Virus record (IMG/VR): IMGVR_UViG_3300033067_001659 | Span: 1 to 39,230 of that record | DNA: 39,230 nt | Source: a virus | Lineage: Duplodnaviria; Caudoviricetes | Reading direction: 5' to 3' (one strand) | Shown here: positions 17,288 to 28,345 of the stretch, piece by piece | Layout: each line of letters opens with the position of its first letter | Position numbering within the stretch: position 1 is the stretch's first letter | The notes under the pieces: model-generated | Database searches by the model: none | Told to the model about the DNA's origin: nothing | Seen by the model: only the letters and a program-made list of their open reading frames with translations | Translations under genes and position numbers: made by a program

Positions 17288-17746
17288 TTATCTATCCAAA
17301 TTTAAATGATAATAATCAGATGTTATCTTTTCTATTAATTTCTTAAATTCTTTCTTATCAAGTTTAATAGCATCTGTATTAAGTAATCTATAAGTCATTA
17401 TATTCTTACTATAAACAGCCAAATCCCTTGTTTTATCATGTTCTAATTGCTCAGGGTTATCTTTATGATGTTTACCATCTAATTCAATACAAGCGTCTTG
17501 CTCTGGTAGATAAAAATCAAGTATATAGAACTGGTATCTATTAATAAATAGTATATGCTGGAACTTGTAAGTTATTTTCATATCATCTAATAAAGACATA
17601 ATATGTTTCTCGTAGATTGTAATATTGTTAATTAACTCTTTACGACGAGAATTGGCGAGTCTTTTAGGATGAACAAATTCATTACGAGCTTTCCTTTCAG
17701 TAGCTTTAATAAAGTTAAGTTCCCTAGGTTTTTCTTTTTTAGCCAT
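17288..17746 (-). CDS. DUF559 / Vsr-like PD-(D/E)XK endonuclease
   Basis: T..E, FQH, YILDFY, IELDGKHH, D..RD motifs. Confidence 0.85.
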   Translation of the reverse strand: MAKKEKPRELNFIKATERKARNEFVHPKRLANSRRKELINNITIYEKHIMSLLDDMKITYKFQHILFINRYQFYILDFYLPEQDACIELDGKHHKDNPEQLEHDKTRDLAVYSKNIMTYRLLNTDAIKLDKKEFKKLIEKITSDYYHLNLDR

Positions 17747-17754
17747 AATATATA

Positions 17755-18100
17755 CCTTATCTCTATTAGAGACATAATAATTTAAAATTAATCAATAAGA
17801 GTTCCTTGCAAATCAAGCTTTTTGATTTACTTAACCCATATAGGGTTATTTTGATTTTAAGGCTTATTAAGACCGTTTAACTTTACCAAAGCATATTTAC
17901 TATGCAGTAGGGATTACTTTCAACCTGGTTTATTCCAGAGCCATTCTACGCTATTGTACCCCTTGAATTAACTTACCTATATTTAAAATCATTTTGAGAA
18001 GAGGGTTAATCTCAGAACTATGGAACTCTAAAGTTGCTCCTACAAAACCCTGTTCACTAAAAGTTCCTTTCTCAAGGGATTATTTCAGCTATGACTCTCT
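17755..18100 (-). ncRNA. Unassigned ~350-nt structured RNA / leader upstream of DUF559 nuclease
   Basis: No ORF; nested long-range pairs 17798-17805/18022-18029 and 17852-17860/17983-17991 plus local hairpins; promoter-like motif at 18101-18112. Confidence 0.55.
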
Positions 18101-18112
18101 ACTATCAATATA
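18101..18112 (-). promoter_or_regulatory. Candidate late promoter TATATTGATAGT
   Basis: 11/12 match to recurring motif. Confidence 0.5.
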
Positions 18113-18153
18113 ACACTTTTATTTCAATTATCCTAATTTTTTAGCAATTATTT

Positions 18154-18573
18154 TTAAATAATATTTAATTGTTGCATTAATTTCTTTAATTCTGACTTAT
18201 TTTTAATATTTAACCAAATTTCATTATTATAAGTACCTTTACTAAGGTCTAATGATGTATAAATTCTAATTTGATTATTATAATGCTGTAAATAATAATC
18301 AGATAATTTATAATTTATCTTTTTATTATCTAGAATCCACCCTAAACTTTCAATATCTTTTTGGTCTAAGTATTTAACTCTAATTTCTTCTTTTTTAATA
18401 TGTATTTTAAATTGTATTTGTTTCATATTCCAATCAATATAATCACAAGGATGTTTAACTTCTTCAAACATTCCTGTATTATAATTTAATCTTTCATATT
18501 CAAAACCTACATATAATTCTTCAATTGAAGGAGTATAATATTTATTATCTTCATTATTCATTGGTAAAATCAT
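18154..18573 (-). CDS. Hypothetical phage protein
   Basis: KYYTPSIEELYVGFEYE...IRVKYLDQKDIESLGW...IKNKSELKKLM. Confidence 0.7.
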   Translation of the reverse strand: MILPMNNEDNKYYTPSIEELYVGFEYERLNYNTGMFEEVKHPCDYIDWNMKQIQFKIHIKKEEIRVKYLDQKDIESLGWILDNKKINYKLSDYYLQHYNNQIRIYTSLDLSKGTYNNEIWLNIKNKSELKKLMQQLNII

Positions 18574-18781
18574 CTTGCCCCATTATTTCTTTTCTAAATT
18601 CTTCGGCTTTTTCATAGTTAATCATCTCTTGGTTGAGTTGTTTAAAATGGTCGCCATCCCCCAAATCATCATAATAATGTTTTCTTTTAACACCTGTTTT
18701 AAGATAAACTACTTTTTGCCCATCTATGTACATGATTCCTTTTAATTCTGAATCATTGAAATTTTTACTTTTTGTCCTCAT
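18554..18781 (-). CDS. Hypothetical protein
   Basis: 75 aa ORF. Confidence 0.55.
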   Translation of the reverse strand: MRTKSKNFNDSELKGIMYIDGQKVVYLKTGVKRKHYYDDLGDGDHFKQLNQEMINYEKAEEFRKEIMGQDDFTNE

Positions 18782-18924
18782 TATGCTTTTTTTAATATTA
18801 ATAATATTGATTGATTAAAACACTCGTTAAATAATTGCTCTAATTGAGTTACATTTGCTGTTACAGACCACCCATCCATTACTATAGTATAAGTGTGGTT
18901 TTCATTTTTTATTACTTGTTTCAT
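18781..18924 (-). CDS. Small hypothetical protein (47 aa, MKQVIKNENHTYTIVMDGW...)
   Basis: Below ORF-track cut-off; TAATG coupling to the next gene. Confidence 0.55.
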   Translation of the reverse strand: MKQVIKNENHTYTIVMDGWSVTANVTQLEQLFNECFNQSILLILKKA

Positions 18925-18943
18925 AGTGTAAAATTACACATTA

Positions 18944-18996
18944 TTTTTTAATTGTGCAAATTTTTTTTAATTTTTTTTAATTTTTTAAATTTTTTG
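18944..18996. repeat. Phased T-tract repeats at the transcription divergence point
   Basis: ttttttttaa ttttttttaa ttttttaaat ttttt, ~10-bp period. Confidence 0.6.
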
Positions 18997-19092
18997 TAGG
19001 TATTTTGATTTGATGCACCCCAAACAAACCTACCCCTACTTAACTTCGACGAAAAGTCAAATATATTAAACTAAACATTAAAAACTACAATC

Positions 19093-19371
19093 ATGAGCAA
19101 TTCAAATTCAAATCTCGGAGTTCCAGCAGGTAAATTAACAGATTACCTTAAATCACAAGGTGCTGTTACTGCATCACTTGTTAATGGTCCAAATGGTGAC
19201 TTTGTGTCAGCCAAGAAAGCTGATAGCACAACCTTTACTCTACCTGTTGGTAAGAAGTCACAAGGTGGTAGACTTACTGAAATGAACGTTTTATTAGTGC
19301 CAACTGAAAGTGGTGAAGTGGCTGTTGCTACTATGAACAACTATTCAACTGTTGACACTATTGAATTATAA
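19093..19371 (+). CDS. Highly expressed small early protein
   Basis: 92 aa, strong codon bias, A-rich Bacteroidetes-type leader; first plus-strand gene. Confidence 0.8.
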   Translation: MSNSNSNLGVPAGKLTDYLKSQGAVTASLVNGPNGDFVSAKKADSTTFTLPVGKKSQGGRLTEMNVLLVPTESGEVAVATMNNYSTVDTIEL

Positions 19372-19389
19372 CTGGCGGTTGGGTTGGTT

Positions 19390-20140
19390 ACAAATAGTTT
19401 GGTTACATGAAGCGTTAGCTGAAATGTAGCCTTACTATTTGTTATATATTAATCAATTATTAATCATTAAACAAGTTATTATGAATCAATTAGGATATAA
19501 TAGTAATTCACAATATGCTATATTTTGGGTTGAGGTAAAAGCATGTTATGATGATTTGTGCCAGGTATGCACATATAATTTGGCATTACAAGCTCAATTT
19601 AGAGCTGTTACAAGTAATTAAATATATTGTAAGTTTATATATTAAACAAGGATAAATGGTAGAATTTTAACTCGTTTACTACCAGACTGTTGTACTTACA
19701 TAATATTCAATTGGCTTCTAGTGCATTAGGAGCATAGTTTGCTAGAATGGTTGTCTAATTAGCAACGCATTTATATGTTTAACTTAAACAATTGATAAGA
19801 GTGATTCAAACCAATGAATTTGCTCTTTTAGAATGAGTGAATGGTGGATAATAAAGTCAATAAAAGTCCACCATTCCTCATTTATTTACACTACAAGACT
19901 CAAGATAATTTCAATTAATTATCTTTAAATTATAATATATAACTAATTCTAATCAATTACTGCGCATAAATGCTTGTAATTAATAAGAATTAGTAATCAA
20001 ATAATCATTATATAATAATATATTATCCTTGAATGGTTTAATATGTTGTATTATGGTGATTATTTGATTAATTATTTGGATTTGTTAGTGGATTTGATGA
20101 TTTATTTGCAGTCCACATCTAACCAATTATCATCCAACAC
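19390..20140. other. Array of long imperfect hairpins
   Basis: Stems 19390-19398/19434-19442, 19839-19848/19867-19876, 19994-20007/20057-20070 (14 bp perfect) and others. Confidence 0.6.
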
Positions 20141-20198
20141 TCTCAACATAACATCTAATTATTACCCTCTCTAAATAATTTATAGCTTAAAATTAAAG

Positions 20199-20252
20199 TG
20201 CGACTGATGATTGCTGAAATGCATGAATCATCTATTCTTTAGATGAATCGCA
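20199..20252 (+). ncRNA. Type I hammerhead ribozyme candidate (U15.1-A16.1 variant)
   Basis: tgcga-CTGATGA-ttgc/gcat-GAAT-catcta/tagatg-AA-tcgca; all three stems in correct order, stem II weak. Confidence 0.55.
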
Positions 20253-20634
20253 GGTTGAGGGTCTGTTAAGTATGCCCAAGATACCCATGAGTTTTAATAG
20301 TTGTTGATGCTTAACATAAAAACTATTTTAAAATAATCGTATGAATATCTCATACTATATAATCTAAAGATATACCTTAGATTACGAATCTAACAATCTC
20401 TGTAAACAGAGTTTAACCTTTAGCAAGTTATGAATATAGTATATTATAAAAGTATTGCAGTGGCTTGACAACCACAATATAAAGTGTGTCATTATGATAA
20501 TTAAAAGAATGCTATATTGTGACTAATATAGGGCGTAAGCTGAAGTCTGGGGAGTCCTAATCCTCATTAGTGGGCACATTAGTAATAATGTTGCCCTAAA
20601 TACATTGGATTTATTAACCTTTAAAACAAATCTT

Positions 20635-20796
20635 ATGCTTTTAAAAACAATATTATTACTATTGTGGATGATATTAACCTTAATACTAGTATTTAGTTTA
20701 ATAGGTTTTGCATTATTAATAAGTTCTAATAATTATCAAAAAACAACTTGGATGGAAATTGGTACAAGTTTAGTTGATAGTATTATTGAACCATAA
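20635..20796 (+). CDS. Small membrane protein
   Basis: MLLKTILLLLWMILTLILVFSLIGFALLI hydrophobic helix; start re-called to ATG 20635. Confidence 0.6.
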   Translation: MLLKTILLLLWMILTLILVFSLIGFALLISSNNYQKTTWMEIGTSLVDSIIEP

Positions 20797-20913
20797 AACA
20801 CTGCTTTCATACTTTACATAGAAAGTATTAAAATTAAGCTTATTATGCTATTAATTGTAAAACCGAAAACTGAAGATATACAGTTCATTAGTACACGTAA
20901 TAAGCTTATTTTT

Positions 20914-20986
20914 GCTCCTTTCGTCTAAAGGTTCAGGACACTAGGTTTTCAATCTAGGAATAAGAGTTCGAGTCTCTTAGGGAGTA
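20914..20986 (+). tRNA. tRNA-Glu(TTC)
   Basis: gctcctt/agggagt acceptor, ctagg-ttTTCaa-tctag anticodon arm, aagag-ttcgagt-ctctt T arm. Confidence 0.85.
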
Positions 20987-20988
20987 CT

Positions 20989-21129
20989 AATTGAACAATG
21001 GCGTAGATAAGGGTTACTTCGACTGTTTAATCGTGTGGTCGGTGGTTCGAATCCATCCTAATAGTAATATTAGTAGCTCAGTTGGTTAGAGCACAAAAAT
21101 TTCTCTTATCGTCTTTTCCTTGTTCAATT
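20989..21129 (+). ncRNA. YrlA-type Y RNA (circularly permuted tRNA mimic)
   Basis: T arm (21041-21057) precedes an acceptor stem closed by a GTAA loop, then D arm (21076-21092); enclosed by terminal stems 20989-20998/21120-21129 and 21006-21013/21103-21110. Confidence 0.8.
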
Positions 21130-21140
21130 TCTTATTAAAA

Positions 21141-21301
21141 TTACTTGCTTGAAGATACATAATAATGGTTGCCAAGCATAAGTTATAAAATGTACTAGCA
21201 TTTGTATGTATTGTAAAGATGTTTAAGCAGGTTTCACTGTTTATACTATTCATAGTAGTCGTGAGTTTAAAGACAACATTCCACTAGAATTGGACAAGTA
21301 A
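21141..21301 (+). ncRNA. Unassigned ~160-nt structured RNA
   Basis: ttacttg/caagtaa closing stem with internal gcttgaa/tttaagc, atacata/tatgtat, aaatg/cattt stems; no ORF. Confidence 0.4.
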
Positions 21302-21336
21302 TTTTATCTAAAATTAACTAATTAAAAATATAAAAT

Positions 21337-21774
21337 ATGGAAAAAACAGTTTTTCAAATAAACGATAATGTTTATTTTATCTTAAATCAAAAAATTAAAA
21401 ATGGTAAAATTATTGATATTAAACAATCTAAAAGCGTATACCCAATACTAGTAGAAACAAAAGATGATGGGTATTTTTCGTTTACTAATGATGGTAAATT
21501 TTTAGAAGGTGATAAAAAACCAAAATTATCATTTACTCCTTATGAAATTAAATATGAAGGATTTAGCCAAGAAAGACCATTACCAGATATTAAAGAAAAT
21601 ACTTTAATATATGTTAGACTATTTAATGGAGGACCTTGGGAAATGAGATATTTTTCACATTTTGATAAAAAAGGAAATTGTTATGTTTTTTTAAATCAAA
21701 TGAAACGATTATTAAATTCATTATATGATACAATTTCTGTTTCAGAATATTCATTAACAAATCCATTATTATGA
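21337..21774 (+). CDS. Hypothetical phage protein
   Basis: 145 aa; FT.DG...KLSFTPY...GFSQERP. Confidence 0.75.
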   Translation: MEKTVFQINDNVYFILNQKIKNGKIIDIKQSKSVYPILVETKDDGYFSFTNDGKFLEGDKKPKLSFTPYEIKYEGFSQERPLPDIKENTLIYVRLFNGGPWEMRYFSHFDKKGNCYVFLNQMKRLLNSLYDTISVSEYSLTNPLL

Positions 21775-21836
21775 TAACAATAATATTTATAGTTTTAGGA
21801 ACAGGTTTATTGTATTATCTAAATAAGAAACAATAA
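21771..21836 (+). CDS. 21-aa membrane micro-peptide MITIIFIVLGTGLLYYLNKKQ
   Basis: ATGA overlap with upstream gene; first 21 nt identical to the start of the 21853 gene. Confidence 0.4.
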   Translation: MITIIFIVLGTGLLYYLNKKQ

Positions 21837-21852
21837 TTTAAAACGATTTAAA

Positions 21853-22068
21853 ATGATAACAATAATATTTATAAGTTTTTTATTAATTTATATTGGTATA
21901 GTAATAGGTTTTATTAAAGATTGCTATGATTATATAAATGAAAAAAACAATTGTAAAATTATCTCAAAGATAATTGCATTTATTATAATTTGTTTAATAA
22001 TGACTGTATTAAGTTTAATTTTAATAGGCTTTAGAATAAGTTATAAATATATACTTAACAATAAATAA
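21853..22068 (+). CDS. Small two-TM membrane protein
   Basis: Two hydrophobic helices, 71 aa. Confidence 0.65.
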   Translation: MITIIFISFLLIYIGIVIGFIKDCYDYINEKNNCKIISKIIAFIIICLIMTVLSLILIGFRISYKYILNNK

Positions 22069-22084
22069 TAATTTATAACCAAAC

Positions 22085-22525
22085 ATAGCTGGTTGTTTTT
22101 GATTATATTCATAGAAAAGTTTAACTTGAAGATAAAAGTAAAGTTGAAATACCTTAACACTTAGGTAATTTGGATATAAGTGATAATCAAAAGATTTTAG
22201 GAGATAGTTCATACCTTAGAGTCGTTTACGTCTTGATGGTAGAGAATTGTAAAGCATACTTGAAAATACTAATATTAGACATAGCACTACTTACGAGGGC
22301 CAATGTACATTTAGCTGTACATCGTAGTAACAGTAGGAACATTAGTATATAATCTAAGTAAAGTATGTAGTGGCAGCTAAGTGTTAAACTATAGGAGTAA
22401 TTACCTATGTATGCGGGAACTTAGCCTCAACAGTAGTAATAGTGTTGAGTAGTTGTTAAACTTGTTTGAATTAACATTCCTAAAGTAAATAACAACATTG
22501 TGCAACTGGAGTGATTACCAGTAAC
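22085..22525 (+). ncRNA. Unassigned large (~440 nt) structured RNA
   Basis: Long-range helices 22154-22164/22377-22387 (11 bp), 22254-22261/22361-22368, 22266-22273/22341-22348, 22098-22106/22183-22191, twin GGAGTRATTACC hairpins. Confidence 0.65.
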
Positions 22526-22546
22526 AAATAATTAAAATTAAATAAT

Positions 22547-22732
22547 ATGACTATAACAATTTTATACATTATAGCAACAATTAGTTTTTCAATTGCTTAT
22601 ATAATTAGTTTTAATAATTAAAGTAAAAGAAATATAAGTTCAATAATTTTAATTATTTTATTTATGTTTTTCTGTTTATTTTAGCCAGTATTTTTAGTAA
22701 GTGATATTGTTAAGAAACTTAATAATAAATAA
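22547..22732 (+). pseudogene. Two-TM membrane protein with two in-frame stops
   Basis: MTITILYIIATISFSIAYIISFNN*SKRNISSIILIILFMFFCLF*PVFLVSDIVKKLNNK*; TAA and TAG interrupt a coherent frame. Confidence 0.55.
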
Positions 22733-22877
22733 ATTAAAAATACCATAATCAGAGCATTATTCATATAAATATAATGTGGATACTGATTAACTCTCAATAT
22801 GAGAGAGTTCTTACCTTAACTTGATTGTATAAGGTATAATTATTCTAACGGTGGTCGCCTGAATAATTAAATTAATT

Positions 22878-22951
22878 GCTCCTATAGCTCAATTGGTTAG
22901 AGAGTCAGACTCATAATCTGAAAGTTATAGGTTCGAGACCTATCGAGAGCA
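22878..22951 (+). tRNA. tRNA-Met/Ile2(CAT), partly degenerate
   Basis: tcaga-ctCATaa-tctga anticodon arm, atagg-ttcgaga-cctat T arm; two acceptor mismatches and one D-stem mismatch. Confidence 0.7.
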
Positions 22952-23056
22952 CATTAAAATGATTGTATTACTTAATTTTTTGTGTGTGTATTAAGGACAA
23001 TTATTTAATACCCTAATTATAGGTTTAATTAGGGTTTAATTTATTTTATAATAAAA

Positions 23057-23188
23057 ATGAAAACAAAATACATTAGATACACAAGAATTTTAAAACATAC
23101 AATACAATATTTTATAACATGGAATGTAATCTATTGGTATGAAGTTCAACATTATTATTATATGAAAAAATTTAGTGATATAAATTAA
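23057..23188 (+). CDS. Small hypothetical protein (43 aa, Tyr/Trp-rich)
   Basis: A-rich leader, MKTKYIRYTRILKH... Confidence 0.4.
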   Translation: MKTKYIRYTRILKHTIQYFITWNVIYWYEVQHYYYMKKFSDIN

Positions 23189-23210
23189 TAAAATTTATAT
23201 TATTTAAAAT

Positions 23211-23298
23211 GCCTCAATGGTGGAATTGGCTATACACGCAGGACTTAAAATCCTGTTACTCTTAATTGGGTTTGTAAGTTCGAGTCTTACTTGAGGTA
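23211..23298 (+). tRNA. tRNA-Leu(TAA)
   Basis: gcctcaa/ttgaggt acceptor, cagga-ctTAAaa-tcctg, long variable arm, gtaag-ttcgagt-cttac. Confidence 0.88.
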
Positions 23299-23407
23299 CT
23301 TAATTTTTAAAGTTATGAATTATAAACAAATCAAAACTCCTTGAGGTGGTTAGTAGAAATACTATTTAGGTCAACCTTTTTCTAATAATAATTAAAAACA
23401 AATAATC

Positions 23408-23809
23408 ATGAAAACATTAATTTTAACAATTCTATTAATAATCACTATTTCTTGTAAAAAAAAAGAAATTAAAGTGGAAGAACCACCAGTAATTACATTA
23501 AAAGATAGTACTTATGTAAATATTAAAACCAAACAATTATGTAATAATATTTATTATGATACTCCAGGTACAATTAAAGTCTATGAGAGCTATCCAAATG
23601 CTATTATTGGTACTTATACTACACAAGTATTAAAAGATGGCTCTATTGGTCTAAAAACACTTAAATTAGACTATAAATACAATAAGTATTATTATGTTAC
23701 ATTAACAGGTAATCTTAATTGTAATTCAATAGTAATTAATAAGACTGTTATAGATAGTTTCCTTAATAAACAAAATGATACTACTAATTTAACAATAATA
23801 TTAAAATAA
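23408..23809 (+). CDS. Lipoprotein
   Basis: MKTLILTILLIITIS-C-KKK signal peptidase II type signal. Confidence 0.75.
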   Translation: MKTLILTILLIITISCKKKEIKVEEPPVITLKDSTYVNIKTKQLCNNIYYDTPGTIKVYESYPNAIIGTYTTQVLKDGSIGLKTLKLDYKYNKYYYVTLTGNLNCNSIVINKTVIDSFLNKQNDTTNLTIILK

Positions 23810-23810
23810 C

Positions 23811-24176
23811 ATGAAAAAACAAGAAGTACCTTTAAGGGCATTTTTAGAAAGTGCACCTTATGAAGTCCTGAGAGCTTCAATGCAAGAAAATCTCAACCAC
23901 AATAATATTATGTTTAACAGAGGTTTAAAACAAGGCGAGAATTACGCTAAAGTTTATTCAAATCTTATTAATCATAATAATATGAAGAAAGAATTTACTC
24001 ATACACCACAAGAAGTTAAAGCTTTACGTGAATTTAAAGCTATGTTTAAAAGCAAAGCATTTAATGTTAAGCATAAGATTCAACAAGCCCGTGAAGAACT
24101 TAAAAAACAAATTCTTGGTTATGCTCAGGATAAAAATTTTAATCCACAAATGAACATAATTTTTAAAATAATTTAA
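23811..24176 (+). CDS. Hypothetical protein
   Basis: 121 aa, biased codons. Confidence 0.7.
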   Translation: MKKQEVPLRAFLESAPYEVLRASMQENLNHNNIMFNRGLKQGENYAKVYSNLINHNNMKKEFTHTPQEVKALREFKAMFKSKAFNVKHKIQQAREELKKQILGYAQDKNFNPQMNIIFKII

Positions 24177-24245
24177 ATATGGGAGGAATAATATATATTA
24201 TAATTGTAGTAGGTATTATTGCTTTTATAATAAAAACAATAAGAA

Positions 24246-24584
24246 ATGAAGAAGATAATAATGATGATTTGGGTAATAATATTATCTAATCAAAAAATAA
24301 TAGCTCAGGATAAAACTAAAGATGATATTAAAATATCATTCAATGTATATTTAGATAATAAAAAAGTTGAAACAGATTCTATTCAAGTAGGATTTGTTTC
24401 AACTCATAATAAAACTTTATATACACATCATGCTTATATTAGTAATAGCTTTGTAACATTTTTTAAACCTAATAGAGTTTATAATATGTTTATTAGCCAT
24501 CCTAATTATAAAAAACAAATTATTAAAATTAATACGTTTAAGATTAAATCTGATAGTATTAATGTGTATTTAAATAAAACTTAA
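24246..24584 (+). CDS. Secreted small beta-sandwich-like protein
   Basis: Signal-like MKKIIMMIWVII...IIAQ, C-terminal ISHPNY....I motif. Confidence 0.55.
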   Translation: MKKIIMMIWVIILSNQKIIAQDKTKDDIKISFNVYLDNKKVETDSIQVGFVSTHNKTLYTHHAYISNSFVTFFKPNRVYNMFISHPNYKKQIIKINTFKIKSDSINVYLNKT

Positions 24585-24732
24585 AAACATTAATTAAATA
24601 AATTAATATAATAAATCACTAAAATATCATTAAACTTTAAATTATACAATTAAGTATTAGTGCAATGTTATTAATATTAATTTATTTAATTATAATAAAC
24701 AAACAAATAAATAAACAATTAAAAAATCAATT

Positions 24733-25236
24733 ATGAAAACAGCAGTAATTATTACAGCAAATCCTAACACAAATGAAGTGTTTAACATTAACAAAAATGC
24801 AGATGGAACTACCAAATTAGGAAAAGATGGTGAAGTTTGGGGTACTATTCGTGTTCAACAAACACAATTGGTAAAAAATGGTAACATTTTACAACCAAAA
24901 GTGATTTCGGCACTTATTCCAATTTCACAAAAAAGCTATGATGTAGCTAAAACTCTTTTAAAAGAGGGTTCTGAATTTGGTGGTCAAATCGTGCGTAAAG
25001 AAACTACAGAAACCAATGCTGATGGAAGTCCATTATTAGGTTATCGTGAAAAACGTGCAGGTTCTGAAGAAAACGCTCCATTATGTACTGTTGGTGGTAA
25101 AACTATTTACCAAACAACTTTCCATACAGAAGATATGAGTGTGAGTAACGAACTTGTAGCTCATGATAATGTTACCGAATTAAAAGCTTTCAGAGCAGCA
25201 CAAGTTTCAGCTCCTTTAAATGTTGCAGGTAACTAA
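24733..25236 (+). CDS. Highly expressed conserved phage protein (possible ssDNA-binding protein)
   Basis: 167 aa beta-rich, strong codon bias, own terminator; function is inference. Confidence 0.7.
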   Translation: MKTAVIITANPNTNEVFNINKNADGTTKLGKDGEVWGTIRVQQTQLVKNGNILQPKVISALIPISQKSYDVAKTLLKEGSEFGGQIVRKETTETNADGSPLLGYREKRAGSEENAPLCTVGGKTIYQTTFHTEDMSVSNELVAHDNVTELKAFRAAQVSAPLNVAGN

Positions 25237-25255
25237 AATTTATTAACCTGGAAAT

Positions 25256-25286
25256 AAAGCCTATTATTAATTTAATAGGCTTTTTT
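25256..25286 (+). terminator. Intrinsic terminator
   Basis: aaagcctatta-ttaatt-taataggcttt followed by T run. Confidence 0.8.
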
Positions 25287-25306
25287 ATGTTCTTTAATAT
25301 ATAAAA

Positions 25307-25377
25307 GTGTATTATTGTGTAAAGGTAGCACTAATGCAAAATAAGCATTTGTATGAGTTCGATTCTCATTGATACAC
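25307..25377 (+). tRNA. Atypical tRNA-like gene, 8-bp acceptor, anticodon loop aaAATaa
   Basis: gtgtatta/tgatacac, D stem gtgt/gcac, aatgc/gcatt, atgag-ttcgatt-ctcat; no Y32/U33. Confidence 0.65.
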
Positions 25378-25382
25378 CTAAA

Positions 25383-25453
25383 GATAACTTGGTCTAGTGG
25401 TAGGACTCTCGGTAGCGGACCGAGAAACATCAGTTCGAATCTGGTAGTTATCC
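25383..25453 (+). tRNA. Atypical tRNA-like gene, anticodon loop taGCGga (nominal Arg-GCG)
   Basis: gataact/agttatc acceptor, ctcgg/ccgag, atcag-ttcgaat-ctggt; A at position 33. Confidence 0.65.
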
Positions 25454-25457
25454 TAAA

Positions 25458-25532
25458 GTAATTAGTAGCTCAGTTGGTTAGAGCGTCACTTTCGTAGAGT
25501 GAAGGTCGTGTGTTCAATTCACACCTAATTAC
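25458..25532 (+). tRNA. tRNA with CGT anticodon (nominal Thr) and 8-bp G-1:C73 acceptor
   Basis: gtaattag/ctaattac, gctc/gagc D stem, tcact-ttCGTag-agtga, gtgtg-ttcaatt-cacac. Confidence 0.7.
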
Positions 25533-25539
25533 CTAATTT

Positions 25540-25611
25540 AGTTCTATAGCTCAAAGGATAGAGCCTTGGTTTTCTAAACCAATTATCTAGGTTCGATTCC
25601 TAGTAGGACTA
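25540..25611 (+). tRNA. tRNA-Arg(TCT)
   Basis: agttcta/taggact, ttggt-ttTCTaa-accaa, ctagg-ttcgatt-cctag. Confidence 0.88.
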
Positions 25612-25638
25612 CTTATTAACAAATTAAAATTAAATAAA

Positions 25639-26226
25639 ATGAATAAAAAAGATTTAAAACCAGGAGATATTATCGTTAAAAATGATATGTTTATAAATAA
25701 AATTGTTAGTATTGATGCTGATAATCTATATAATACAATTAGTTATTATATAGATTTATTACGGTCAAGCTTTATTAATTGTAGTTTTAATAATCAAACA
25801 GTAAAGATTGGTGATAAATTAAGATTAGCAACAGAAGAAGAAAAACATTGGCTTAATGAATGTATTAAAGCTAGTAAATTTATTAGTAAAGATGAAGCAT
25901 TAAAAAATTTCATACCTGAAAAATTTGCTGTTAAAAATGTTAATCGTTGTTTAGCAGGATTATTATCAGATTATAAACTTCATGGTAATACACCAGATTA
26001 TTATTATCATTTTGATGAAATTGGAAAATTTGTTAGTTATACCTTATTGCAAGGTTATACAGAAATATCGTTTGAACAATTTAAAAAATATATACTTAAA
26101 TTAGATACTGATGAAGAAATTATTGATAAAACAATAAGCATTAAAAGTATTCAAAATGAATTATTAAAACATTATGAAAAAGATGATGTTAATGAAATTA
26201 TTAATATTATAAATAAAATAAAATGA
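25639..26226 (+). CDS. Modular hypothetical phage protein
   Basis: RLATEEEKHWL and GYTEISFEQFKKYILK modules. Confidence 0.75.
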   Translation: MNKKDLKPGDIIVKNDMFINKIVSIDADNLYNTISYYIDLLRSSFINCSFNNQTVKIGDKLRLATEEEKHWLNECIKASKFISKDEALKNFIPEKFAVKNVNRCLAGLLSDYKLHGNTPDYYYHFDEIGKFVSYTLLQGYTEISFEQFKKYILKLDTDEEIIDKTISIKSIQNELLKHYEKDDVNEIINIINKIK

Positions 26227-27377
26227 GAAAATTTAGACATAAAATAACAGGAGATATAGCATTTGAATTAAATTCAACTGATTATTACTCACTAGAAAGC
26301 GATATTACAAAAATACCTTCTAAATTAGTAGAAAATTCTAATGATTGGGAAGAAATAGTTGAATATCCATTATCAATTACTGATTTAAAAACTGGTACGT
26401 TTTATACAACTGAATATGAAAATCAAGGTAAATACACTTTTAGACAAGGTTGTGATATTTATTATTCACATCAACATAATTCATTGTATAATTTAAATGG
26501 TGATTTTACTAATTCAAATGGCTTTTATAATTTTAGAGAAGCTACTAATGAAGAAATTATAAAATTAATTCCTGAATATATTAAAATAACAAGAGAATTT
26601 AATAGAACTTTAAGATGGTGGAAGGTTGGTCATATTTATAATGTTCAATATCTTAAAAATAATAATTTAAAAGTTTATCATAAAGAATTATTGGATAATT
26701 CTACATCTATTAATAATATTTTTTATGTACCAGCAACTAAAGAAGAATATGATGCTCAATTTGTTAAAAAAGATTATGAAATATTAAGTTTTAAAAGTAA
26801 ATTTGGAAATGAAATTTATACTAAAAATGAAGACAGTTTATTTACAAATGGTAATATAAAACCTAGTACTATAGAAGAAATGTTAGATATTAATAAAACT
26901 AATATTATTTATTCAGTTAAACGTTTATATGATGGTGAAATATTTACTATTGGTGATAAAGTAATGTATGAAAATAGTGGTGATATTTTTATTATAAATT
27001 ATTTTACATTTTATGATAAAAAACAAACTAAAATAGTAGCAGGTAATTCAATTGCTACAGACCCGGATAATTCTGATTGGAGTATTATTAATACTCTTAT
27101 CAAATATAAGAAACAACCATTATTCAAAACAGAAGATGGTGTAGATATTTATGAAAATGATGAATATTATTGTACAAATCATCAGTATAATTTATATGGT
27201 CCATTTAAAGGAGTACTTAAATTTAATGTTTCTAAAACTTTTTCAACAAAAAAAGGTGCTGAAGCATATATTATTATGAATAAACCATGTTTATCATATA
27301 AAGAGTTAACTGAAAGAGATTTTATTAAACCTTGTAATCGTAACACATTACTTGAATGGATTAAAGCTAAATTATAA
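26223..27377 (+). CDS. Modular hypothetical phage protein
   Basis: REATNEEI, VPATKEEY, YSVKRLYDGEIFTIGD, PLFKTEDGVDIY modules; ATGA overlap. Confidence 0.8.
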   Translation: MRKFRHKITGDIAFELNSTDYYSLESDITKIPSKLVENSNDWEEIVEYPLSITDLKTGTFYTTEYENQGKYTFRQGCDIYYSHQHNSLYNLNGDFTNSNGFYNFREATNEEIIKLIPEYIKITREFNRTLRWWKVGHIYNVQYLKNNNLKVYHKELLDNSTSINNIFYVPATKEEYDAQFVKKDYEILSFKSKFGNEIYTKNEDSLFTNGNIKPSTIEEMLDINKTNIIYSVKRLYDGEIFTIGDKVMYENSGDIFIINYFTFYDKKQTKIVAGNSIATDPDNSDWSIINTLIKYKKQPLFKTEDGVDIYENDEYYCTNHQYNLYGPFKGVLKFNVSKTFSTKKGAEAYIIMNKPCLSYKELTERDFIKPCNRNTLLEWIKAKL

Positions 27378-27383
27378 AATATA

Positions 27384-27448
27384 TGGGAGTTAATATAGAA
27401 TTAAGGTCGCGGGATAGTCTATATTGGTTAAAAGCCAAAACTCCCACA
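27384..27448 (+). ncRNA. Small D-armless tRNA-like RNA directly upstream of tmRNA
   Basis: gggagtt/aactccc-A acceptor-like stem, tataga/tctata stem, ttgg-ttaaaag-ccaa T-like arm. Confidence 0.45.
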
Positions 27449-27454
27449 TTATTT

Positions 27455-27846
27455 GGGCCAGCCAGGTATTGCCTTATAACAACAATTAAAATAAGTAAGT
27501 AGTGAGATGTTTACTATCACTTAAATCTATGTTTACAGCCTTTTATCAGGCAATGTGGTAATCACTAACGAATTAGGTTCAAAAGCAGATTTGGCCTTTT
27601 TAGTTAAAAAACAAAATGCTTCTGCAAAAGTTATTAAATTAACAACTGCTGTTGAAGCAGAACTAGAGTTAGCTGCCTAGATTCAACAAAGTGTGGTCAA
27701 TTATAGTTTTATATATTAATTATAAAAGAAGCATTAAAAGCATTTAAAAATATAATAGTCTGTATTAGACGATAAACTTATACTAAACTTATAGAAAGTT
27801 TTAAGAATTGTTATGAGAAACGAGTGTTCGATTCACTCCTGGTCCA
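27455..27846 (+). ncRNA. ssrA: tmRNA
   Basis: gggccag/ctggtcc-A acceptor with G3-U70, T arm gagtg-ttcgatt-cactc, helix 2 cttataacaa/ttgttatgag, ATG-less frame ending ELAA-stop (27680). Confidence 0.92.
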
Positions 27847-27920
27847 CGGCGGCAGTGGTTTAAAAGTAACGCCTTAATGATAACTAGTTTATCAGAGTTC
27901 GAAGTGAATGCTGCGCTAAT

Positions 27921-27992
27921 AGTAATTTAGTTTAAAGGCTAAAACATAACCCTGATGTGGTTAAGAAGTTGGTTCGATTCCTTCAATTACTA
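27921..27992 (+). tRNA. tRNA-Ile(GAT), degenerate
   Basis: agtaatt/aattact acceptor, taacc-ctGATgt-ggtta; two T-stem mismatches and G37. Confidence 0.6.
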
Positions 27993-28081
27993 CGAGTGAG
28001 ATGATTATATATTTAAGTCCTATTATAAACTGCAATTTATATTAAATTATATGACATCTCCTTTCTTATTATTAACCAAAT

Positions 28082-28115
28082 AAAAACCAGTTAGGCGTGT
28101 GCAAACCTGGTTTTT
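28082..28115 (+). terminator. Intrinsic terminator
   Basis: aaaaaccag ... ctggttttt inverted repeat. Confidence 0.6.
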
Positions 28116-28132
28116 ATTTAAAAATTATTATT

Positions 28133-28345
28133 ATGATAAATTTATACTTAATTGAATCTAAACAAACTCAAAAATTTATTTTATGTAAAAATAGTACTCG
28201 TGCTGAAAAAATATTTATGAATTTAGTAAAATTAAATTACTATAAGCTATTAGATTATGATAATTTGAGTAATAGGGCTAAAGATAAATTAAATAAATTT
28301 ATAAAAAATAAATGTGTTGTAATTAGAATAACTAAATTAAATTAA
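28133..28345 (+). CDS. Hypothetical protein
   Basis: Start re-called to ATG 28133 because the GTG at 28097 lies in the terminator. Confidence 0.55.
   Translation: MINLYLIESKQTQKFILCKNSTRAEKIFMNLVKLNYYKLLDYDNLSNRAKDKLNKFIKNKCVVIRITKLN

What the first reader, a model, noticed from the sequence alone, without database searches (positions are those of the whole stretch)
22085..22525. Large (~440 nt) ornate non-coding RNA candidate inside the tRNA island
Seen: no credible ORF and higher GC than the flanks. Many nested helices occur: ttaacacttag/ctaagtgttaa (11 bp, ~220 nt apart), gcatactt/aagtatgt, atactaat/attagtat, tttgattat/ataatcaaa, atgtaca/tgtacat and ctcaaca/tgttgag. Two look-alike hairpins, ataGGAGTAATTACCtat (22391-22408) and actGGAGTGATTACCagt (22505-22522), show compensatory outer pairs. 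The 11-bp helix starts inside another stem's interior, suggesting a pseudoknot. Established: ROOL and GOLLD are large phage ncRNAs found next to tRNAs. Inference: a member of those classes or a new one; I cannot assign it by eye.
Basis: partly seen in the sequence, partly recalled or inferred. Interest (0 to 1): 0.75.

Follow-up and report, generated by a model that had tools for sequence, protein, structure and literature searches.

The report
New family of ornate phage RNAs
This gene-free stretch of a crAss-like phage carries a roughly 450-base folded element whose base pairs are kept by compensating changes across dozens of phage sequences and which matches no catalogued RNA family; it is likely a stand-alone RNA that may assemble with copies of itself, as the giant phage RNAs GOLLD and ROOL do.

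Summary
The element is real, and it is neither ROOL nor GOLLD. Window 22077-22527 (+) has 42 homologous loci in viral and metagenome contigs and in one cultured phage. All share a fixed order of conserved blocks separated by variable stems. Helices P0-P8 are kept, with compensatory changes: six predicted pairs pass a tree-aware test at E<=0.05, and 28 of 50 pairs change on both sides.

A bulge at 22349-22355 covaries with the terminal hairpin loop at 22510-22517, a long-range kissing contact kept in 30 of 32 sequences. This is the supported pseudoknot.

Rfam finds nothing, although the same search mode detects real ROOL and GOLLD. The variable stems are swapped between phages: the window's P4 insert is 97% identical to one relative's and its P5 insert 95% to another's. 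Carriers include distant phage lineages, while the two near-complete terminase relatives of this phage lack it.

Transcription was not shown. Best guess: a stand-alone RNA cut from the tRNA-island transcript, forming an RNA-only scaffold like GOLLD/ROOL. The function is untested.

The parts
22077..22527 (+). Whole element, 451 nt: optional 5' modules plus conserved core
   Evidence: Homology limits; structure
22077..22094 (+). 5' hairpin H5, 5-bp stem and conserved 8-nt loop; optional
   Evidence: At this position in 9 entries including the window; the same loop sits inside P2 or P7 in 2 others
22096..22193 (+). P0 long stem (22096-22106/22183-22193) around a variable insert with a T-loop-like hairpin at 22143-22152; optional
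   Evidence: Both arms found in 21 of 43 entries, in two sequence types with different but complementary arms; positions; T-loop-like motif
22204..22250 (+). P1 (22204-22210/22244-22250) and P2 (22212-22215/22238-22241) with a small asymmetric internal loop
   Evidence: 95% of cells paired, 8 of 11 pairs with two-sided change in 16 sequences
22254..22368 (+). P3, 8 bp (22254-22261/22361-22368); predicted loop-E motif (22262-22265 with 22356-22360); P4 (22266-22273/22341-22348) with a variable insert
   Evidence: Three P3 pairs at E<=0.05; many sequence versions of P3; loop E is recognised by recalled consensus
22349..22355 (+). Conserved bulge, 5' partner of the long-range kissing contact (22350-22354 with 22513-22517)
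   Evidence: Central three pairs kept in 30 of 32 sequences with compensation; U-A 8, C-G 6, U-G 1 at the middle pair
22369..22425 (+). Near-invariant linker (22370-22377) and P5 (22376-22382/22419-22425) with a variable insert holding the look-alike hairpin 22391-22408
   Evidence: Two P5 pairs at E=0.025; insert 95% identical to L074
22428..22447 (+). P6 hairpin capped by a GNRA tetraloop (22436-22439)
   Evidence: Pair at E=0.025; a copy found without the search pattern has a changed loop that is still GNRA
22448..22503 (+). Linker, P7 (22452-22458/22490-22496) with a variable insert, and an invariant 7-mer at 22497-22503
   Evidence: the 5' strand of P7 was fixed by the search pattern, so its invariance is by construction
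22505..22522 (+). Terminal hairpin P8; its loop (22510-22517) is the 3' partner of the kissing contact
   Evidence: A stem with varied sequence in all 32 entries tested
21136..21306 (+). Domain U: a second conserved structured element. It abuts the element in some relatives; in the window two ORFs separate them. Either a detachable 5' domain or a separate RNA
   Evidence: Found in 9 records among the held loci; closing stem and two hairpins with compensations; fold z -2.05
20914..20987 (+). tRNA-Glu, nearest upstream tRNA (context)
22878..22952 (+). tRNA-Met, nearest downstream tRNA (context)

Best explanation
The element is a conserved, base-paired, pseudoknotted sequence of a family absent from Rfam, and it is likely a stand-alone phage RNA that is cut out of the tRNA-island transcript and likely works as a protein-free scaffold that assembles with copies of itself, as GOLLD and ROOL do. 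Shown: the family, helices P0-P8, covariation of the bulge with the terminal loop, exchange of peripheral stems between phages, patchy presence across phage lineages, and no dedicated protein neighbour within 2 kb. Inferred: (1) transcription on the + strand with the tRNA genes; (2) release by tRNA-processing cuts; (3) a compact core locked by the kissing contact, loop E and GNRA docking; (4) use of some contacts between molecules, giving an oligomer that displays the variable stems, several with T-loop-like hairpins, to host translation or RNA-decay machinery. Odds: real structured non-coding RNA of a new family about 0.93; stand-alone and acting in trans about 0.75; homo-oligomer about 0.4.
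For: 42 homologous loci besides the window. Six of the seven top-scoring column pairs at E<=0.05 are predicted pairs. 87% of cells paired and 28 of 50 pairs changed on both sides, 0 of 500 shuffles as high, every slid register far lower. Kissing triplet kept in 30 of 32; one exception is a truncated duplicate whose intact copy keeps it. G-U pairs and the GNRA loop fit the + strand. The downstream neighbour is a same-strand tRNA 5-9 nt away in 4 of 43 entries and an ORF of 40 aa or more within 45 nt in 13 of 43, from several unrelated families; the commonest neighbour family is in 8 of 43. T-loop-like motifs: 12 in 140 inserts against a shuffled mean of 3.2, maximum 10. Kissing loops, loop E, variable regions, a conserved 3' with a variable 5' part and tRNA islands are described for GOLLD/ROOL (PMC12286853, PMC12990946).
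Against: No transcript shown: the one metatranscriptome holds only read-length contigs at depth 2-4, over the element and elsewhere. Covariation cannot tell a contact within one molecule from one between molecules. Only one such contact was found, against five or more per chain in ROOL and GOLLD (PMC12286853). The raiA RNA, also large and ornate, is a monomer (same paper). The core (329 nt here) is shorter than ROOL or GOLLD. Only 18 of 43 entries have a tRNA or tmRNA call in the held flanks. The kissing pair is not among the top 45 pairs, and much of its signal is one split between two sequence types; the permutation test ignores relatedness. The T-loop pattern was tuned on these sequences.
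Confidence: 0.42

Rival explanations
1. A compact monomeric RNA that binds a host protein (nuclease, anti-phage sensor or translation factor) as a decoy or inhibitor, with the kissing contact inside one molecule.
For: 56 of 167 core columns are at least 96% conserved in 29 sequences, about 20 of them fixed by the search pattern. Accessory, mobile distribution is typical of host-interaction genes. T-loop-like stems occur in the inserts.
Against: No partner protein identified; no neighbour family in more than 8 of 43 entries. The T-loop-like stems are optional and lie at different positions.
Confidence: 0.27
2. A new ribozyme, for example one that processes or repairs the neighbouring phage tRNAs.
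For: An invariant single-stranded core around a multi-helix junction with freely variable peripheral stems is the pattern of RNase P and group I introns (established knowledge). tRNAs abut the 3' end in 4 of 43 entries.
Against: No match to RNase P, group I or II intron or self-cleaving ribozyme models in the window region or 16 relatives. The flanks read are not split tRNA or gene halves. Most copies have no adjacent tRNA.
Confidence: 0.12
3. A cis-acting leader (riboswitch, translation enhancer or exonuclease block) for the downstream gene.
For: An ORF starts within 45 nt of P8 in 13 of 43 entries.
Against: Those ORFs belong to several unrelated families. A tRNA follows directly in 4 entries. 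No ORF of 40 aa or more starts within 200 nt in the window.
Confidence: 0.1
4. A loose string of independent small hairpin RNAs, or DNA-level recombination linkers, not one molecule.
For: Peripheral stems and 5' modules are exchanged between phages. Some copies keep only the 3' half (L079, L087, second copy in L149). Earlier scan notes read other crAss islands this way.
Against: Block order is the same in all 33 complete entries. Helices enclose the exchanged stems. The bulge covaries with a loop 160 nt downstream. G-U pairs and GNRA point to RNA.
Confidence: 0.06
5. Chance helices in AT-rich spacer, or a small protein-coding gene.
For: The single sequence folds no better than shuffles (z -1.46).
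Against: Homologues with compensatory changes; indels in multiples of any length; no shared reading frame.
Confidence: 0.02

Closest known systems
GOLLD RNA (Rfam RF02032)
   Same: Phage RNA near tRNA genes; conserved 3' part with a variable 5' part; a helix flanked by a loop-E-like motif; a short terminal hairpin whose loop makes tertiary contacts; variable regions (PMC12286853; consensus seen).
   Different: No sequence or model match in either direction. Different helix order. Core about 330 nt against a 416-position 3' domain and 700-830 nt overall. Oligomer not tested.
ROOL RNA (Rfam RF03087)
   Same: Phage or prophage RNA near tRNA islands with pseudoknots, loop E and variable linkers. 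A few short words near its loop E resemble the bulge region here.
   Different: No match. In ROOL those words are separated by helix strands, 5' and 3' ends pair, and the average length is 581 nt (PMC5737381). It occurs in bacterial chromosomes and plasmids (5 of 151 genomes), while this family had no real match in 151 genomes of the phylum of G002.
raiA motif RNA and OLE RNA
   Same: Large ornate RNAs of unknown biochemical function with a conserved tertiary core (PMC12286853).
   Different: Chromosomal, with characteristic gene or protein partners; no Rfam match here.
RNase P RNA and group I introns
   Same: Invariant junction nucleotides, a GNRA hairpin and variable peripheral stems (recalled).
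   Different: No Rfam match. The recalled catalytic consensus words were not seen by eye. No exons.
T4 tRNA-cluster RNAs C and D; theta ribozymes (both recalled, not read)
   Same: Small stable or catalytic RNAs inside phage tRNA clusters.
   Different: Much shorter; no HDV-like fold in this element (by eye; no Rfam match).

Membership tests
GOLLD | Match to the conserved 3' domain model RF02032 | tested here: not met
   No hit at E<=10 in window 17700-28200 or the own record, none at E<=5 in 16 relatives; control L191 scores 275 bits
GOLLD | Similarity to the full-length RNA, including the 5' domain that Rfam omits | tested here: not met
   Core and domain-U profiles give best E 2.5 on seven ROOL/GOLLD loci, only one of them GOLLD; model R1 has no hit there
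GOLLD | Length about 700-830 nt | tested here: inconclusive
   451 nt in the window; an estimated 650-750 nt where domain U abuts it (L096, L101; distances, both contigs end inside P7)
GOLLD | Phage-borne, often near tRNA genes | tested here: met
   crAss-like capsid, portal and terminase genes; tRNA or tmRNA in the flanks of 18 of 43 entries
GOLLD | Forms a homo-oligomeric cage | not testable with these tools
   Needs mass photometry or cryo-EM
ROOL | Match to model RF03087 | tested here: not met
   No hit. E-value mode finds ROOL in L185 (130 bits) and L186 (240 bits); gathering mode missed L185, so only E-value-mode negatives are relied on
ROOL | Long 5'-3' closing stem, six junctions, three pseudoknots | tested here: not met
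   The comparative structure has no end-to-end stem and one supported pseudoknot
ROOL | Forms a homo-oligomeric cage | not testable with these tools
   Needs biophysics
RNase P RNA | Match to bacterial or archaeal RNase P models | tested here: not met
Group I or II intron | Catalytic core model match and interruption of a host gene | tested here: not met
   No Rfam hit; flanks differ between copies and are not split exons
Riboswitch or cis-leader | Constant position 5' of a functionally related gene set | tested here: not met
   Downstream neighbours are tRNAs or ORFs of several unrelated families
Any expressed non-coding RNA | Discrete transcript with defined ends | tested here: inconclusive
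   Only read-length contigs in one metatranscriptome

The most novel reading that the evidence does not exclude
A third, unrelated class of giant phage RNA built like a plug-board. A conserved, self-assembling core has five sockets (P0, P2, P4, P5, P7) whose stems, some of them tRNA-elbow-like, and whole 5' domains are swapped between distant phages by recombination at the conserved blocks, diversifying what the RNA particle presents to the host. Or the core is a new ribozyme class.
Probability: 0.25. Interest if true: 0.88.

Novelty: new variant of a known kind. Interest (0 to 1): 0.64.

Why it matters
ROOL and GOLLD are the two large RNA classes described from phage tRNA islands, and their function is an open question. 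A third, unrelated and smaller family allows a direct test of whether cage formation is a general property of such RNAs. It comes with a specific, testable kissing contact, natural compensatory variants, and a copy in a cultured phage (PP438436). The natural exchange of peripheral stems shows which positions tolerate cargo. If it proves monomeric or catalytic, it is still a new large RNA fold.

Tried and rejected
- Searching for the two look-alike hairpins together gave 4 loci, none homologous.
- The first gapped pattern gave 1 true locus of 3.
- Most of the 123 loci were chance; members were kept when P6 paired and a flanking invariant block was present. In 185,579 prokaryote genomes only 2 of 28 matches were members, both on contigs of metagenome bins and probably phage.
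- BLAST of three queries against cultured phages found only PP438436 (domain U none real); plasmids gave nothing.
- Model R1 had one weak hit in 151 genomes of the phylum of G002, a terminator-like hairpin that lacks the flanking blocks.
- The sigma-70 promoter scan was at chance level, 50 against 42.
- The minus strand folds slightly better than shuffles (z -2.36); rejected because G-U pairs and the GNRA loop fit the + strand.
- Resemblances to RNase P, group I intron, group II domain 5, T-box and lysine riboswitch were weighed from memory and dropped for lack of a model match or the right topology.
- Earlier scan findings had no look-alike by sequence or place.

Full report
Setting. The window is a 39-kb virus record, 43% complete. 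Its capsid protein is 38-41% identical to those of its best-matching crAss-like phages, and PHROGs names capsid, portal, terminase and DNA polymerase. ARAGORN tRNAs and a tmRNA between 20914 and 27993. The finding lies between a 71-aa ORF ending at 22068 and tRNA-Met at 22878.

Observation. The stretch is richer in GC than its flanks (0.31 against 0.18 and 0.19) and has no credible ORF. Folded alone it is not exceptional (z -1.46). Perfect 9-bp inverted repeats are in excess (4 against 0.87), but the single 11-bp repeat is seen in 8% of shuffles.

Family. BLAST found collinear blocks in an unannotated gap of phage Lbo-JY46. Pattern scans of viral, metagenome and genome collections were filtered for pairing and flanking blocks. 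Of 48 kept entries 5 were duplicates, leaving 43 including the window. Some are close kin (L085/L111, L139/L148, L096/L101). Thirty-three have the full P3-P8 core; the rest are cut by contig ends or lack the 5' part. The last pattern fixed 20 bases around P6 and P7, so invariance there is by construction, but it did not demand pairing. The core spans roughly 250-520 nt in the 22 entries measured, 329 nt in the window (some 5' cuts are imprecise).

Structure. From 5' to 3': optional hairpin H5 and stem P0; P1/P2; P3, a predicted loop E, P4 and a 7-nt bulge; a near-invariant linker; P5; P6 with a GNRA loop; P7; an invariant 7-mer; P8. A G-test with average-product correction against a tree-based null used 29 of the 33 complete entries (L067, L118, L091, L062 dropped for atypical bulge register). 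Seven of 6,837 column pairs reached E<=0.05: six are predicted pairs in P3, P5 and P6, and one is a non-pairing neighbour in P3. On an independent MAFFT alignment of 16 sequences, 87% of cells pair and 28 of 50 pairs change on both sides; 0 of 500 shuffles reach this and slid registers fall to 30-59%. That alignment did not register P8 (39% paired), and L067 was mis-cut at its 5' end. Folded separately, P8 forms in all 32 entries tested.

Pseudoknot. The bulge and the P8 loop are complementary in their central three positions in 30 of 32 entries (5 atypical entries left out). The middle pair switches between U-A and C-G, and the next pair switches C-G to U-A in two entries on separate branches. 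Native pairings beat shuffled ones (1 of 20,000), but this ignores relatedness, and the pair was not among the top 45. One exception, in L149, is a truncated duplicate; the intact copy upstream keeps the contact and has a changed but still GNRA P6 loop, and it was found without the pattern.

Mosaicism. The window's P4 insert is 97% identical to that of L048, its P5 insert 95% to L074 and its short P2 insert 78% to L081, and each of these differs from the window at the other positions. The call lists 22 such discordant pairs, a few probably spurious among short AT-rich P2 inserts. The simplest reading is recombination at the conserved blocks (inference). The 5' side also varies. Eleven entries have a motif marking a different, pseudoknot-like module upstream. 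Nine records have domain U, which lies within about 100 nt of the element's 5' modules in L096, L101, L074 and L118 and 340-1,050 nt away in the window, L063, L048 and L126. Domain U was sought only in flanks of the core, so its independence is unknown.

Distribution. Five carriers were checked for the window's capsid protein: three match at 25-28% identity and two, including a complete 175-kb record and Lbo-JY46, do not. None of 15 terminase relatives carries the element; most are fragments, but two are 93% and 100% complete. It is therefore accessory and moves between lineages. No protein family accompanies it: the commonest neighbour is in 8 of 43 entries. The host is not established. crAss-like phages infect Bacteroidota (established knowledge), while the Lbo-JY46 record names Leptolyngbya.

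Known families. Rfam 15 gives no hit over the element at E<=10 or over 16 relatives at E<=5. Controls matter: gathering mode missed a known ROOL, while E-value mode found it and GOLLD. Profiles and a covariance model of this family do not hit seven ROOL/GOLLD loci.

Expression. One metatranscriptome holds a 151-nt contig identical to 22267-22417 at depth 4, and similar fragments elsewhere at depth 2. This shows neither ends, strand nor enrichment.

Mechanism. I commit to a stand-alone RNA released from the tRNA-island transcript that forms an RNA-only scaffold, probably oligomeric. The structure, contact and mobility are shown. Transcription, processing, tertiary docking and oligomer formation are inferred by analogy with GOLLD and ROOL. 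A monomeric protein-binding decoy is the main rival and a ribozyme the most exciting one.

Literature seen. PMC12286853: parts 1-3 of 9 of the text, word searches of 5 supplements and one part of the ROOL alignment (that file was cut, one file unreadable). PMC5737381: passages; supplement unreadable. PMC10690425: passages; 6 supplements searched without a hit, 3 not searched; its candidates are 29-151 nt, so a fragment of this family could be listed there unseen. PMC8040213 and PMC12990946: passages. Eight searches listed no description of this family, and none named Lbo-JY46. The library lacks most subscription papers, so 'unpublished' is not proven.

Verdict. A real, new family of large structured phage RNA of a known kind. 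Function untested. Interest 0.64.

Noticed in passing
window 21034-21095 (+): Weak match to YrlA (Y-RNA-like, RF02553), 38.6 bits against a cut-off of 69, E 1e-5. A tRNA T-arm is followed by a D-arm in permuted order, just after tRNA-Glu. It folds no better than shuffles.
   Followed up: partly
window 21136-21306 (+): Domain U, a second conserved structured element with a loop-E-like helix and two hairpin loops that share a 4-nt palindrome, candidates for kissing or self-kissing. No Rfam hit.
   Followed up: partly
window about 17985-18095 (-); upstream of the core in L064, L065, L073, L075, L093, L094, L106, L109, L113, L148: A recurrent pseudoknot-like module (hairpin loop complementary to a downstream strand). 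It directly follows tRNA-Leu in L065 and a tRNA-like 3' end in several others. No Rfam hit in those scanned. It could be a separate RNA or a tRNA-trailer ribozyme.
   Followed up: partly
window 27455-27847 (+): Phage tmRNA called by ARAGORN but not by Rfam at gathering or E<=10. L006 has a tmRNA with a similar tag end next to its copy of the element.
   Followed up: no
window 19370-20900: About 1.5 kb with few ORFs and several GC-richer patches, probably holding more structured RNAs; no Rfam hit.
   Followed up: no
L149 1153-1315 and 2752-3226 (-): Two copies of the element in one contig, one intact and one 5'-truncated, each followed by tRNA-like sequence.
   Followed up: partly
L005 (PP438436.1): The record names Leptolyngbya boryana as host, yet genes near the element belong to the same families as in the other carriers. 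The host assignment is worth checking before using it as a test system.
   Followed up: no
window 25308-25378 (+): ARAGORN calls tRNA-Ile with anticodon AAT, unusual in bacteria; not found by Rfam on this strand.
   Followed up: no
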